From NCBI RefSeq assembly GCF_009914755.1, contig NC_060947.1: a DNA stretch of 64,000 bases; one strand, written 5' to 3'. A program made the position numbers and the translations under genes. Position 1 is the first letter of the stretch; each line of letters begins with the position of its first letter. Of the stretch, positions 2,347 to 61,870 are shown in pieces. The notes beneath the pieces were generated by a model that was not told the DNA's origin, ran no database searches, and worked only from the letters and a program-made list of their open reading frames with translations. Source of the stretch: the human T2T-CHM13v2.0 reference genome, Homo sapiens.

Positions 2347-2645
2347 TTCTTTTTTCCTTTTTCTTTTCTTTTTTTTTTTTTTTGAGACAGGATCTTGCTC
2401 CGTCCCCCAGGCTGGAGTGCAACGGCATGATCTCAGCTCACTGCAACCTCCTCCTCCCACATTCAAGCAGTTCATCCTGCCTCTGTCTCCCGAGTATCTG
2501 GGATCACAGGCCTCCACCCCCACGGCCAACTAATTTCTGTGTTTTTAGTAGAGACGGGGTTTCACCATGTTGGCCAGGCTGGTCTCGAACTCTTGACCCC
2601 AAGTGATCCACCCGCCTCGGCCTCCCAAAGCACCGGGATGACACA
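2347..2645 (-). mobile_element. Alu
   Basis: T-rich tail followed by antisense Alu right and left arms. Confidence 0.93.
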
Positions 2646-3069
2646 TATTAGCATGACGTATATTCTTCTGTTCCTCCGGGGACTCACTGTCTTCTTGGGC
2701 CAGTGAACCACCGTGCCCTGCCTTCTCTGTCCACATCTACACACGTGTAAATCTCTGTAGATTCTGAATTGTTTTTCCTTTTGCACAGAATGAGAGGAAC
2801 TGAAGTCGGGAGGCCCAGCCCCAACATGGTCCCTCTGGCTCTGTGCTCAGGCGGTTTATGGCTGAGAAGGACTTGGGGGTTGAGGGCTTCCTATCAGCCC
2901 AGGAGACATTCCCCGGGCCTGGGGAAGCCTGCTCTGCACTTGTGGGTCTCGAATTGTCTGTTGCATTTACCTGCCTTATTATTTTTTCTTCCTGTCTCTC
3001 TTCTTACATATTTCTCTCGAATTTGGGGCTTGTTTTTCTTAACTACAATCAACGTGAATCATTATTGCA

Positions 3070-4375
3070 TTATATAAATATAAATTTTATATTGAATAGA
3101 CATTATATGCTCAATCTAGTACACATTCCAACACAGGCCATATCTAAGAGGCATATTTATATTTAATGTACAAAACATGTTTACATTTCGTATGGAAAAT
3201 ATACATTTATATTTAACATATATGTGTATATTTAATACAGGGAATATATATTTATATTTAATATAGAAAATATATATTATATTTGACATATAAAAATATA
3301 TGTTTATATTTAATATGGGAAATATATGTTTATGTTTAATATACAAAATACATGTTGATATTTAAAATAGAAAATGTATAGTTATATTTGCTATGCAAAA
3401 TACATGTTTATATTTAATATAGAAAATATGTTTATATTTAACGTAGAGAATATATATTTATATTTAATATGGAAAATATATATTTATATTTAACATATAT
3501 AGTATTTATATTTAATGTATAAAATATGTTTACATTTAATGTGCGGAATATATGCTTATATTTAATGTCTAAAATACATGTTTATATTTAATGTATTGTA
3601 AACATTAAATGTACCAAACGTATTCTTATATTTAATGTATAAAAGATGTTTATATTTAATATATAAGATATGTTTACATTTAATGGATAAAATGTTTATG
3701 TTTGATGTATAAAAGATGTTTATATTTAATGTATACAATGTTTATATTTAATGTACCAAATATATTATTATATTTAATGTCCAAAATGTATTTATATATA
3801 ATATGTAAGGTATGTTTATATTTTATATGAAAGATATGTTTACATTTAACGTATAAAATGTTTATGTTTAATGTATACAACATGTTTATATTAAATGTAT
3901 ACGATGTTTTTATTTAATGTACCAAATGTATTATATTTAATGTATAAAAGACGTTTATATTTAACATATAAGTTTATATATACTTTATATATTATATATT
4001 ATATATACGTTATATATTGTATAATATATAAAATATATAAAAATAAGTTATATTTAATATATAAGATATGTTTATATTTAATGTATATGTTTATGTTTAA
4101 TATATAAAAGATGTTTATATTTAATGTATAAAAACATGTTTAATGTATAAATTATATTTATATTTAATGTATATTTTTATATTTAATGAATACATATATT
4201 TGTATTAATATATGAAATGTATATTCATACTTAGTATGTAAATATACACTCATTTAATAGACAAAATGTATATCTGTATTTAGTATATAAAATGTATATT
4301 TGAGTTTAATAGATAAATGCATGTTCATATTAATATGTAAATATATGTCCATGTTTATAAAAATATATATATTTA
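3070..4375. repeat. Degenerate AT-rich minisatellite (~24-bp unit ATGTTTATATTTAATGTATAAAA-like)
   Basis: TGTTTATATTTAAT recurs dozens of times. Confidence 0.85.
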
Positions 4376-5357
4376 CATGCTCCTTGTCTCCTTTTCTAGA
4401 TCAAGATCTTACAGTAATAGCAAAAAAAAATAAAATCCGTTTATTTTGTAACAAAACACCTTGGGCTTCCCACAGCCTGGACCAACATGATTTTATTTTA
4501 GAGCAAAGAGTGAGGTGTAAGCAGGTTTTCTGGCCCCATCGGGCGACATGTGTGGCTGGGGCAGCGCTGTGTAGGGAAGGACACAGCCAGTGGACCCTCT
4601 AGAGTTTCCCTGCATGGGGTTTCTCTCTCTTCCTCTTACAAGAAACACTTTCTGAATTTTTAGGACACCCAGTCATGAATGCAAGAAACCTGAGATGGAG
4701 TCAGCCTGGGAACAGCCGAGCTCTGAGACGGTCACATCAAGCTGTTCCCACCGTAAAACTCACTCCTGACGTCCACCTCTCCTGGGATGAAAGTGGCCAG
4801 CAGCCTCGGCCTGGCCTAGGACTCCAGAGCCCCGGGTAGTGGTGGCTGGGGTGACTGACAGGGCCTGTCTGCTCCAGCTGCCTCCCTGTCCCTGAGTCTG
4901 TCCAGCCAAGGGTCACCCTGCAATGCAGGACCTCAGTGATTCTGCACATAGGGGTCACTTTGCTCACATTCTCAAAGATAAAAATGAACCCAGTTTCAAA
5001 ATCAAAAACAAAAACCAGTTGTCTGTGTAATACTCTTGCAGCAGAGCTGGTGCCCTTTCCTGCGTCTATAATTTGTAGCCTTAAGGTTGTAAAAGTCTAC
5101 ACTGGAAGCAAACACAAGCTCCTTCTGAACACCACCAAGAGCTCCCCTCTGGAAGCCTGGCCTCCAAAACGCCGTCTGCTTCCTCTTTTTTCTTTTTTTT
5201 GGAGAGAGTTTCAGTATTTTAAGGATCTCATTTGCTTTTGGGGAATTGCTTCCTGAGAATAAGCGCCTCCCACCCCACCCAACTACCCATCTCTGAACCA
5301 TTTATTCGTTTCTCTGTCTGAGCAACCAAAGCTTTCCTAAGCTGTTGAGGGCTTAAC

Positions 5358-5805
5358 TTTTTTTTTTTCTTTTTCTTTCTCTTTCTTTCTTTCTTTCTTT
5401 CTTTCTTTCTTTCTTTCTTTCTTTCTTTCTTTCTTTCTTTCTTCTTTCTTTCTTCTTTCTTTCCTTTCTTTCTTTCTTCTTTCCTTTCTTTCTTTTCTCT
5501 TTCTTTCTTTCCTTTCTTTTCCTTCCTTCCCTTCTTTCTTTTTTCCTTCCTTCCTTCCTTTCTTTCCTTCTTTCTTTCTTCCTTCTGTCCTCCCTTCCTC
5601 TTTCTTTCTTTTTTCTTTCCTTCTTTCCTCTTTCTTTCTTTTCTTTTCTTTCTTTCTTTCCTTCTTCCTTCCTTCCTTCCTCTTTCTTTCTCCTTCCTTC
5701 CTCTTTCTTTGTTTCCTTCCTTCCTTCTTTCCTTCCTCTCTCTTCTCTTTTCTTTCTTTCTTTCTTTCTTTTTCTTTCTCTCTCTCTCTTCTTTCTTTCT
5801 CTGGT
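5358..5805. repeat. (TTTC)n/(CTTC)n pyrimidine tract grown from an Alu tail
   Basis: Near-pure C/T run abutting the antisense Alu at 5806. Confidence 0.95.
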
Positions 5806-6092
5806 TTTTTTTTGACAGATTCTGGCTCTGTTGCCCAGACTGGAGTGCAGTGGCACAATCTTGGCTCACTGCAACCTTCGCCTCCGAGGTGCAAGCAATT
5901 CCCCTGTCTCAGCCTCCCAAATAGCCATGATTACAGGCACACACCACCACGCCTGGATAATTTTGTATTTTTAGTAGAGACGGGGTTTCACCATGTTGGC
6001 CAGGCCGGTCTCGAACTCCGGACCTCAGGTGATCCGCCCGCCTCGGCCTCCCAAAGTGCTGGGATGACAGGCATGAGCCACCGCACCTGCCC
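5806..6092 (-). mobile_element. Alu (AluS-like)
   Basis: Full antisense dimer; GGGATGACAGG variant at ~6061. Confidence 0.95.
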
Positions 6093-59925: not shown

Positions 59926-60205
59926 AAAGAGAGAGAGAGAGAGGAGAGAGAGAGAGACAGACAGAGGGAGAGGGGAGAGAGAGACAGACAGAGAGGAGAG
60001 AGAGAAAGAGGGGAGAGAGAGAGACAGAGACAGAGAGAGGGGAGAGAGAGAGACAGAGAGAGAGGGGAGAGAGAGAGACAGAGAGAGAGGGGAGAGAGAG
60101 AGAGGAGAGAGAGAGAGAGAGACAGAGACAGAGGGGAGAGAGAGAGAAAGGGGAGAGAGAGAGACAGAGGAGAGAGAGAGACAGAGAGAGATACAGAGAG
60201 AGAGA
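59926..60205. repeat. (GA)n/(GACA) tract
   Basis: Direct reading. Confidence 0.95.
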
Positions 60206-60524
60206 CCCTGGAAGGTATTTTCTCTGTGCTCCAATTCCAGGGCATATTTTGGAAGAAAAGGGATCATGCTGGTGGTTTTGCGGAAGGTCAGTGCCAGAGT
60301 TGAGGAAGAGGAAGATGTCACTTTGGCAACTCATTGTCAAGTTCTCCAAAAATCAGGGAGGTGGGGAGCTGGAGTCAGGGAGGGAGGAGAGGAGGAAGCA
60401 ACAGCCACCCACACAGGGAAGGATCTCTCCTCTCTTCCTCTCCATCTGCCACACCGTGACCCCATCCCTTGACTTTGCCTTTGCAGAGGGCATCCTGCCT
60501 TTGTCCACAGCTGTTTCTCTCTGT

Positions 60525-61348
60525 CTTTTTTTGAGAGACAGTCTTGCTTTGTTACCCAGACTGGAGTGCAATGGAGCAATCATAGCTCACTGCAACCTCA
60601 AGCTCCTGGACTCAAGCCATCCTCCCGCCTCAGACTCCCAAGTAGCCGGGACCGCAGGAGCAGACCCACCATGCCCCATTAATTTTTAAACATGTTTTGG
60701 AGAGTTGGGGTCTCACTATGTTGCCCAGAGTACCACCATGCCCCATTAATTAAAAAAAAAATTTGTAGAGATGGGGTTTTGCTATGTTGCCCAGGCTGGT
60801 CTCAAACCCAGAGCACCACCGTGCCTCATTAATTAAAAAAAAAATTTTGTAGAGATGGGGTCTTGCTATGTTGCCCAGGCTGGTCTCAAACTCCTGGGCT
60901 CAAGCGATCGTCCCATCTCAGCCCCCCAAGTAGCTGGGACCACAGAAGCAGACCACCATGTCCCATTCATTAAAAAAAAATATTGGGGCCAGACAAGGTG
61001 GCTCACGCCTGTCATCCCAGCACTTTGGGAGGCTGAGGCGGGCAGATCATGAGGTCAGGAGATCGAGACCATCCTGGCTAACATGGTAGAACCCCGTCTA
61101 CTAAAAATACAAAAAATTAGCCGGGCGTGGTGGCGGGCGCCTGTAGTCCCAGCTACTGGGGAGGCTGAGGCAGGAGAATGACGTGAACCCGGGAGGCGGA
61201 GCTTGCAGTGAGCCAAGATCGCGCCTCTGCACTCCAGCCTGGGTGACAGAGCGAGACTCCGTCTCCAAAAAAAGATAAAAATTTGGAGAGATGGGGCCTC
61301 ACTATATTGCCCAGGCTGGTCTCAAACTCCTGGGCTCCAGCGATCCTC
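60525..61348. mobile_element. Antisense AluJ-like element with internal tandem re-duplications and a nested sense AluY (~60987-61280)
   Basis: ACCACC.TG.C.CATT.ATT..GAG.TGGGG..CTAT.TTGCCCAG at ~60666, 60732, 60815, 60953. Confidence 0.85.
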
Positions 61349-61555
61349 TTATCTTTACTTTATGGAGAGAAATACGCAATTTCTACGTAGTGCTTTTGTT
61401 TTAAAATGCAGCTTGATCCTCAGACCATGAGAGGCAGGCATTTTACAGAAGAGACATCAGAACTTTCTAGAAGGTGGGTGATTGTTCAGTGCCTCTTCAG
61501 AGAACAAGTTGCAAAACCGAGGAAATTGCAACTTCTGAGCCTAAATTCAAGGGTT

Positions 61556-61870
61556 GGCCGGGTACAGTGGCTCACGCCTCTCATCCCAACACTTTGGGAG
61601 GCCGAGGCGGGCGGATCACCTGAGGTCAGGAGTTCGAGACCAGCCTGACCAACATGGTGGAAACCCGTCTCTACTAAAAATACCAAAATTAGCCAGGCGT
61701 GGTGGTAGGTGCCTGTAGTCCCAGCTACTCAGGAGGTTGAGGCATGAGAATCACGTGAAGCTGGGAGGTGGAGGTTGCAGTGAGCCGAGATTGCGCCACT
61801 GCACTCCAGCCTGGGAGACAGAGCGAGACTCCATCTCCAATACATACATACATACATACATACATACATA
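61556..61870 (+). mobile_element. Alu with (TACA)n tail
   Basis: Sense dimer followed by ATAC repeats. Confidence 0.95.

What the first reader, a model, noticed from the sequence alone, without database searches (positions are those of the whole stretch)
2635..61590. Recurrent TpA->GpA/TpC substitution across unrelated repeats, repeatedly creating TGACA(G) motifs
Seen: the Alu GGGATTACAGG/CCTGTAATCCC site reads (G)ATGACA/TGTCAT at about 25 positions (~2637, 6062, 9439, 10434, 16079, 16829, 17073, 17653, 23178, 23311, 24243, 28097, 28555, 35132, 35639, 38854, 39692, 41459, 42693, 57628, 58434, 58594, 58849, 59274, 61010), plus GACGACA ~41785, GTTGACA ~57892 and TGTCAA ~58984/59417. It occurs in J-, S- and Y-like copies, in both arms and both orientations, so it is not a subfamily diagnostic. 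Against recalled consensus, the same change appears elsewhere: CACATAGACACC 12290, CTCATCAGTG 12427, GTATCCATG 20276, GGTGTCTATG 53701, TTTGGTGACATG 8834 (L1) and CTCTCCTAAAA 45962 (Alu). Inference: a regional T>G/A>C process at TpA, from mutation or GC-biased gene conversion under very high recombination, or from ectopic Alu-Alu conversion. By-product: many TGACAG (MEIS/PKNOX/TGIF) sites next to PBX/HOX islands.
Basis: partly seen in the sequence, partly recalled or inferred. Interest (0 to 1): 0.72.

Follow-up and report, generated by a model that had tools for sequence, protein, structure and literature searches.

The report
Site-specific T-to-G hot spots in PAR1

Summary
All 25 listed positions read GATGACA/TGTCAT. 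The G form of the Alu left-arm site is in 47 of 112 de-duplicated copies in distal PAR1, 15 of 60 mid, 6 of 59 proximal and 3 of 105 outside PAR1; genome-wide it is 1.4%. One L1 3'UTR site shows the same PAR1 excess and a second probably does, so it is not Alu-only. But it is not a general TpA process: other Alu TpA columns (20/1,232 vs 13/1,095), two control L1 TpA sites (0 PAR1 hits of 110) and non-Alu DNA show little or nothing, and TGACAG is not gained elsewhere. Published gnomAD data show T[T>G]A as the top non-C>G class in PAR1 (1.25-fold), which bounds today's mutation excess at about 8-13-fold against 25-100-fold in fixed differences. Best reading: context-specific T>G mutagenesis tied to male recombination, plus a fixation bias or a higher past rate. 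Not found in print in nine searches.

The parts
2384..61837 (.). Span of the window over which Alu and L1 copies carry the site-specific T>G; part of a gradient over distal PAR1
2384..2643 (-). S-like Alu, left-arm site changed
5814..6097 (-). S-like Alu, left-arm site changed
8834..8834 (+). Old L1 3' end, T>G candidate; 1 of 2 clear copies, not shown to be a hot site
9187..9469 (-). S-like Alu, left-arm site changed
10317..10599 (-). S-like Alu, right-arm site changed
12290..12290 (+). L1 3'UTR hot column (CACATA[T>G]ACACC) in L1 12086-12645
15964..16248 (-). S-like Alu, right-arm site changed
16722..16857 (-). Alu left monomer, site changed
17051..17333 (+). S-like Alu, left-arm site changed
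17403..17683 (-). Y-like Alu, left-arm site changed
20276..20276 (-). Young L1 3' end (20218-20393), second candidate hot column (CACATG[T>G]ATACA); inside the RefSeq meiotic recombination region 19875-20901
   Evidence: hub annotation
23042..23874 (+). 133-bp tandem array of Alu arms; 2 of its units carry G (23187, 23320), not independent of each other
24220..24490 (+). S-like Alu, left-arm site changed
27982..28261 (-). S-like Alu, right-arm site changed
28444..28698 (-). S-like Alu, right-arm site changed
34881..35163 (-). S-like Alu, left-arm site changed
35615..35904 (+). Y-like Alu, left-arm site changed
38852..38863 (+). Left-arm site changed in the last unit of the 307-bp Alu tandem array 37655-38872
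39662..39950 (+). S-like Alu, left-arm site changed
41209..41480 (-). J-like Alu, left-arm site changed
41670..41949 (-). Y-like Alu, right-arm site changed on the GACTACA background (GACGACA)
42581..42857 (-). S-like Alu, right-arm site changed
53701..53701 (-). L1 3'UTR hot column, same change as 12290, in an independent copy (53346-53779; 85.5% identical)
57376..58707 (-). Four Alus of a local tandem duplication, each with one arm changed (57376-57665 left, 57774-58067 right, 58180-58470 left, 58481-58707 right)
58823..59539 (+). Two related S-like Alus with both arms changed (right arm reads GTTGACA)
61008..61019 (-). Left-arm site changed
61556..61837 (+). S-like Alu, left-arm site changed (reads GATGAGA)

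Best explanation
A small set of TpA sites in Alu and L1 copies has changed T to G far more often in distal PAR1 than elsewhere, likely because repair of male meiotic breaks mutates T to G in these particular contexts, and the G allele is then likely fixed faster than neutral. Shown: one Alu base (both arms), one L1 3'UTR base and probably a second are changed in roughly 40-60% of distal PAR1 copies; the rate falls away from the telomere in PAR1 and on chr1p; the product is G, not any base; the flank just 3' of the T (ACAG) is better kept in changed copies. Inferred: the link to male meiotic double-strand breaks (from the gradient and the published male map); the chemistry (loss or damage of the T, then insertion of C opposite it by REV1-type translesion synthesis, the T counterpart of the published PAR1 C>G signature; recalled biochemistry, untested here); and the second step (fixation bias, or a higher rate in the past), needed because today's rare variants account for only part of the excess. 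All three contexts read T-A-(C/T)-A-(C/G), but that word is not sufficient, so the real determinant is longer or depends on chromatin.
For: Alu column 34: 47/112, 15/60, 6/59, 3/105 (p=6e-13); Spearman -0.64 with distance from the telomere over 20 PAR1 stretches, p=0.0025. Alus with G at two sites 110-132 bp apart: 60 of 87 genome-wide are in PAR1 (29 X, 31 Y, all below 1.7 Mb), none on X or Y outside PAR1. chr1p: G form vs two control changes 29:8 in 0-10 Mb, 32:61 in 30-125 Mb, p=6e-6. L1 site: 7 of the first 100 listed G hits lie in X PAR1, 0.08 expected by length, against 0 of 14 and 0 of 96 for two control TpA changes in the same L1 word (p=0.005). Even outside PAR1 this L1 change is several times commoner than the cold control (110 vs 14 hits), pointing to intrinsic context mutability. 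gnomAD rare variants: T[T>G]A 356 vs 284 expected, 1.25-fold, the highest non-C>G class in PAR1 (PMC6731651 supplement). Male rate falls away from the PAR1 telomere, female rate does the opposite (PMC4102438 passages). Flank -4..-1 mutated 7/351 in changed vs 63/1,070 in unchanged copies, p=0.0025.
Against: If all 72 excess T[T>G]A variants sat on about 2,050 GATTACAG sites, the present mutation excess would be at most 8-fold (13-fold if all distal), against 25-77-fold (PAR1 mean) or 32-98-fold (distal) in fixed differences; pure ongoing mutation predicts 236-649 polymorphic sites. General W>S bias in these Alus is only 1.0-1.6-fold, too small to close the gap. No short motif generalises: TTACAGG is not depleted in non-Alu DNA (8 seen, 12 expected; controls 9 seen, 14 expected), and several TA(C/T)A columns in L1 are unchanged as is Alu column 131 (1 of 107). 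Hinch 2023 passages name C>G, C>T and A>G, not T>G, for translesion repair at hotspots. No de novo or allele-frequency data at the sites were available.
Confidence: 0.45

Rival explanations
1. Site-specific transmission distortion: the T allele draws meiotic breaks (or loses mismatch repair) and the G allele is over-transmitted, like hotspot-motif erosion, by a past PRDM9 allele or a longer-lived factor; mutation is only mildly raised.
For: The gap between rare-variant excess (at most 8-13-fold) and fixed excess (25-98-fold). AluY-like copies are as affected as older AluS-like ones (9/17 vs 51/135, p=0.29), which fits an episode after most insertions. None of 8 X/Y-discordant double sites examined (of 10) is a lone T/G difference at the focal base. 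PAR1 shows 8-fold GC fixation bias within 25 bp of PRDM9 motifs.
Against: Erosion should hit several motif positions and favour transitions; columns 25-52 and 159-186 show no comparable change and column 34 gives C 47, G 6, T 1. No association with the PRDM9-A 13-mer in the same Alu (5/59 vs 5/98, p=0.50). Alu and L1 contexts share little beyond 5 bases. The X/Y test has little power.
Confidence: 0.3
2. Non-allelic (ectopic) gene conversion among neighbouring repeats spreads a founder G variant under PAR1's high recombination.
For: Arm-scale turnover is visible between X and Y haplotypes; 13 of the 29 X double hits begin with left-arm sequence, i.e. tandem arms (read); rare L1 variants occur as same-allele pairs 40-200 kb apart; conversion among Alus within about 10 kb is described (PMC8230782 passages).
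Against: No linked variant among 286 tests (best p=0.006) and changed copies share no more derived bases with each other (0.053 per pair) than unchanged ones (0.066); only one column of 288 is lifted in each arm; sparse L1 copies are hit as hard as dense Alus; conversion alone has no direction.
Confidence: 0.12
3. General TpA T>G mutation or ordinary GC-biased gene conversion.
For: T>G in Alus is slightly up overall (1.01% vs 0.76%); S>W is down near the site; gBGC in PAR1 is about twice autosomal.
Against: Other TpA columns not raised; control L1 TpA sites have no PAR1 hits; TpA observed/expected in non-Alu DNA 0.68 vs 0.69-0.73; gnomAD A/C/G[T>G]A below 1.
Confidence: 0.03
4. Gain of TGACAG (MEIS/PKNOX/TGIF) sites favoured by selection or by protection from breaks.
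For: The bases best kept in changed copies (-4..-1, +1) are those of TGACAG; GACGACA shows no telomeric skew on chr1-6 in the first 100 of 327 hits; [G/T]ACAG ranks 4 of 253 contexts in non-Alu DNA.
Against: TGACAG not enriched at Alu column 267 (30/87 vs 41/133) nor among derived 6-mers (rank 177 of 473); 52 seen vs 53 expected in non-Alu DNA; the L1 products are AGACAC and GGATAC, not TGACAG.
Confidence: 0.05

Closest known systems
PAR1 C>G signature of male meiotic break repair (Agarwal and Przeworski 2019, PMC6731651; Bergman and Schierup 2022, PMC9575207)
   Same: Same region, a transversion whose product is G, graded with recombination; C>G is also up in these Alus (1.30% vs 0.97%) and common among X/Y differences.
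   Different: C>G is 1.2-1.6-fold and spread over all trinucleotides; this is tens of fold at single columns. T[T>G]A appears only as a row in their supplement; the sections read do not discuss it.
GC-biased gene conversion in PAR1 (Hinch 2014, PMC4102438)
   Same: W>S direction, strongest in the telomeric 200-700 kb.
   Different: gBGC acts on all W>S changes; here one transversion exceeds the transition at the same base 8 to 1.
PRDM9 hotspot-motif erosion
   Same: Position-specific change in repeat-borne motifs where recombination is high.
   Different: One base and one product; no tie to the PRDM9-A motif; two unrelated repeat contexts.
Non-allelic gene conversion among neighbouring Alus (Aleshin and Zhi 2010, seen only as cited in PMC8230782)
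   Same: Neighbouring Alus share a non-diagnostic change; recombination-associated.
   Different: No linked variants; one directional change over more than 1 Mb; L1 affected too.
Extended-context hypermutable motifs such as NTT[A>T]AAA (Carlson, bioRxiv 10.1101/108290)
   Same: Transversion hot spot at a TpA that needs more than three bases of context.
   Different: Those are genome-wide and about 6-fold; TACA/TGTA do not occur in that text, and it made no predictions within 5 Mb of chromosome ends.

Membership tests
Meiotic break-repair mutagenesis (PAR1 C>G type) | Rate follows male recombination | tested here: met
   Gradient in PAR1 and chr1p matches the male, not the female, trend; a correlation with position, not with a measured map
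Meiotic break-repair mutagenesis (PAR1 C>G type) | Excess among rare variants | tested here: inconclusive
   T[T>G]A 1.25-fold, but it allows at most 8-13-fold at the sites and is not resolved by site
Meiotic break-repair mutagenesis (PAR1 C>G type) | Paternal de novo origin near breaks; dependence on REV1/TLS | not testable with these tools
   No trio or knockout data
GC-biased gene conversion | All W>S changes raised alike | tested here: not met
   W>S 1.0-1.6-fold; A>G 2.8-fold vs A>C 14.7-fold at the same base
PRDM9 motif erosion | Several motif positions lost, any disrupting base | tested here: not met
   Only columns 34 and 168, mainly to C
PRDM9 motif erosion | Over-transmission of the cold allele | not testable with these tools
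   Needs allele frequencies or sperm typing
Alu-Alu non-allelic conversion | Co-conversion of neighbouring variants | tested here: not met
   very short tracts would escape this test
Alu-Alu non-allelic conversion | Confined to the multicopy family that donates | tested here: not met
   L1 column also hit
Alu subfamily diagnostic position | Tied to one subfamily, spread over the genome | tested here: not met
   J 2/14, S 40/88, Y 5/10 in distal PAR1 (subfamily labels from recalled diagnostic columns); 1.4% genome-wide
TALE (MEIS/PKNOX/TGIF) site gain | TGACAG gained by any route | tested here: not met
   the motif name is recalled
TALE (MEIS/PKNOX/TGIF) site gain | Binding to G-form Alus | not testable with these tools
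   No ChIP data

The most novel reading that the evidence does not exclude
Human male meiosis has an undescribed sequence-specific mutator or drive, independent of the current PRDM9 motif, that has rewritten one base in roughly 40% of Alu left arms and half of matching L1 sites in distal PAR1, and more weakly in autosomal subtelomeres; the fraction of G at this Alu base would then be a built-in fossil gauge of male recombination over the last tens of millions of years, readable from any primate assembly.
Probability: 0.35. Interest if true: 0.85.

Novelty: new variant of a known kind. Interest (0 to 1): 0.66.

Why it matters
A single-base change in about 40% of copies is well beyond known regional spectrum shifts (1.2-1.6-fold in PAR1), and trinucleotide analyses dilute it to 1.25-fold. 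Because about a million Alus carry the same site, it offers a ready-made reporter: it makes directly testable whether male meiotic breaks mutate specific contexts or whether a non-GC, site-specific conversion bias exists, and it could map ancestral male recombination. It also warns that Alu dating, subfamily calls and motif scans (TAATCC lost, TGACAG gained) are skewed in PAR1, which holds the SHOX enhancers.

Tried and rejected
General TpA process: rejected. Hairpin or quasi-palindrome templating: the change alters the predicted fold by only 0.2 kcal/mol, does not depend on the state of the Alu 3' GGYGACAG site (G intact 28/78 vs CA 8/29), the adjacent base that a hairpin copy would change first is unchanged, and no deletion form was found. 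A TA(C/T)A or W-TACA-SS rule: not sufficient. PRDM9-A motif link: none. X-versus-Y test for living polymorphism: 8 of 10 discordant double sites examined in 7 locus pairs; differences lie in flanks or in whole arms; one pair shows G on X and T on Y inside an arm that differs at 16 places; two Y-only sites were not checked; low power. GACGACA scan listed only chr1-6, so its PAR1 share is unknown; 3 of the 4 distal PAR1 cases lie within 1.1 kb in one locus. A pile-up over mixed non-Alu repeats gave no TpA excess (6/191 distal vs 11/192 controls) but drops columns where the change is common and was not used. Wider autosomal subtelomeric and X-stratum sampling could not be fetched; only one 19p13.3 stretch (0/20) and two non-PAR X stretches (1/11) were seen, so the autosomal gradient rests on listings. 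No genome-wide count of T>C at the Alu site or of the T form of the second L1 site was made. Literature searches found no description; Aleshin and Zhi 2010 and McNeil 2006 are not held, subscription papers and bioRxiv supplements were not searchable, and Figure 5A itself was not seen. Xp22 escape-region oligomers in PMC1584270 supplements do not include GATGACA.

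
Full report
Setting. The hub places the window at chrX:682,001-746,000 of T2T-CHM13, in PAR1 (boundary near 2.39 Mb, recalled). It is rich in Alus and tandem repeats.

Observation. All 25 listed positions read as stated. A flank-anchored scan found G at the TpA T in 27 of 99 Alu sites. 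The exact left-arm 22-mer is 9 G: 10 T in the window and 3,990: 286,220 genome-wide, 1.4%. The genome G count is strand-skewed (2,333 vs 1,657), so an array probably inflates it. The neighbouring T>G has 787 hits and T>A at the same base 1,636.

Regional pattern. I fetched 20 spaced 10-kb PAR1 stretches and 8 controls: five interstitial autosomal, one 19p13.3, two X beyond PAR1. An Alu consensus was built from the proximal and control loci. Of 466 hits of 80 bases or more, 407 were non-overlapping and 392 remained after removing local duplicates of 93% identity or more; columns near gaps and ends were masked. At consensus column 34 (left arm) the change is in 47 of 112 distal copies (window included), 15 of 60 mid, 6 of 59 proximal and 3 of 105 non-PAR; at the right-arm twin (column 168) 21 of 125, 4 of 65, 1 of 65 and 0 of 110. 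The fraction falls with distance from the telomere (rho -0.64, p=0.0025). Of 87 genome-wide cases with G at two sites 110-132 bp apart, 60 are in PAR1, none elsewhere on X or Y, and 27 on autosomes, 19 of them within 10 Mb of an end (most chromosome lengths recalled). About 13 of the 29 X cases are tandem left arms and so not two events. On chr1p the G form outnumbers two control changes 29:8 in the first 10 Mb and trails them 32:61 at 30-125 Mb (hand counts; test), which puts the interstitial background near 0.45%. The male crossover rate falls away from the PAR1 telomere and the female rate rises (passages of PMC4102438).

Not all TpA. The other Alu TpA columns that passed the filter give T>G 20 of 1,232 vs 13 of 1,095 (p=0.39). 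Overall T>G is 1.01% vs 0.76%, C>G 1.30% vs 0.97%. At column 34 the derived bases are C 47, G 6, T 1. In 66 kb of non-Alu, non-tandem distal DNA, TpA, TGACA and TGACAG are not clearly shifted; [G/T]ACAG shows a weak shift (200:104 vs 190:151, rank 4 of 253).

Not Alu-only. In L1 3'UTRs the column at 12290/53701 is G in 3 of 5 distal PAR1 copies with that context against 153: 20,340 genome-wide. With a 40-base pattern 7 of the first 100 listed hits (110 in all; the rest of X and all of Y not listed) are in X PAR1, 0.08 expected by length. Two control TpA changes in the same L1 word gave 0 PAR1 hits of 14 and of 96, full listings. Most other L1 TpA columns in 10 PAR1 copies are unchanged.

Anatomy of the Alu change. 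Y-like copies are as affected as S-like (9/17 vs 51/135), J-like less (2/20). Changed copies are not more diverged overall (5.0% vs 5.3%), have no linked variant in 286 tests, and share no extra derived bases. They keep the four bases on the ACAG side better (7/351 vs 63/1,070), as expected for a context-dependent event. Hairpin templating, the PRDM9-A motif and general TGACAG gain were tested and not supported.

Mutation or fixation. The supplement of PMC6731651 (parts 8-9 of file 2 read; sections 4 and 8 read) gives PAR1 versus autosome counts in gnomAD for 84 classes. T[T>G]A is 356 vs 284 expected (1.25-fold, significant), the top class after nine C>G classes; A, C and G[T>G]A are 0.95, 0.90, 0.88. 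With about 2,050 unchanged GATTACAG sites in PAR1 (scaled from my loci), the 72 extra variants allow at most an 8-fold excess, 13-fold if all are distal, whereas fixed differences imply 25-77-fold (PAR1 mean) or 32-98-fold (distal) depending on the background used; pure ongoing mutation predicts 236-649 polymorphic sites. Caveats: hg19 gaps, variant filters in Alus, and my G counts there include tandem copies. So new T>G mutations are probably raised at these sites, but a site-specific fixation bias or a higher past rate is needed as well. The X/Y comparison found no lone T/G difference in 8 of 10 discordant doubles and cannot decide.

Mechanism. I commit to context-specific T>G mutagenesis in male meiotic break repair with a second, fixation or past-rate, step (0.45). 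REV1-type insertion of C opposite a lost T would make it the T counterpart of the C>G signature; that chemistry is recalled and untested, and the passages seen in PMC7615360 list C>G, C>T and A>G only. Site-specific drive is a close rival (0.30).

What is known. PMC9575207 (abstract and sections 6, 7, 9) reports low ts:tv, C>G excess and strong gBGC in PAR1, with no such site in the sections read. Passages of bioRxiv 10.1101/2020.01.10.893024, bioRxiv 10.1101/108290, PMC2776969, PMC1584270 and PMC8230782 do not describe it. Nine full-text searches, one with the variant motif itself, found no description; the library lacks most subscription papers.

Verdict.

Noticed in passing
G000:C23:125.9-130.5 Mb and G000:C10:95.6-96.1 Mb: Clusters of the L1 G form outside PAR1: 9 hits on Xq (8 within 125.9-127.8 Mb) and 4-5 on chr10. 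Could be further hot regions, local duplication or L1-L1 conversion.
   Followed up: no
whole genome: The G-form Alu 22-mer is strand-skewed (2,333 forward, 1,657 reverse) while the T form and controls are balanced; suggests a tandem array with several hundred G copies (rDNA spacer or Y satellite are guesses).
   Followed up: no
listings: Rare L1 variants, including control ones, often come as same-allele pairs 40-200 kb apart, as expected from local L1-L1 conversion or duplication.
   Followed up: no
window 23042-23874, 33798-34363; L037-L041: Tandem arrays of 133-135-bp Alu arms are frequent in distal PAR1 and differ between the X and Y haplotypes by whole arms.
   Followed up: partly
L029-L036: X and Y PAR1 haplotypes differ by up to 2% in these 500-bp stretches (chosen for being discordant), with many C/G differences, in line with the published C>G signature.
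   Followed up: partly
G000:C24:719732-720017: Two Y double sites have no match at the expected X place; the X-Y offset grows by about 4 kb between X 629 kb and 702 kb, suggesting a structural difference near this window.
   Followed up: no
listing (C1:85654534, C2:52169687, C3:130346491, C4:81579200, C5:1727581, C6:139815175): Six near-identical Alus share GACGACA in the right arm: likely a small young AluY lineage carrying this change.
   Followed up: no
window 7238-7544: The RefSeq conserved region holds three TGACA/TGTCA words (7325, 7343, 7433) and one ATAAATCA (7411), outside Alus and unrelated to the substitution.
   Followed up: no
window 46814-47438, 35383-36805, 59928-60205; L007, L010: Long (GATA)n and GACA-interrupted (GA)n tracts occur in distal PAR1 loci and hardly in controls; T>G at TATA/TACA words could feed them, untested.
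   Followed up: partly
Alu column 168 on the GACTACA background: T>C (GACCACA) is 11 of 45 distal vs 4 of 49 controls, but 8 of the 11 are J-like copies, so it may be subfamily mix.
   Followed up: partly
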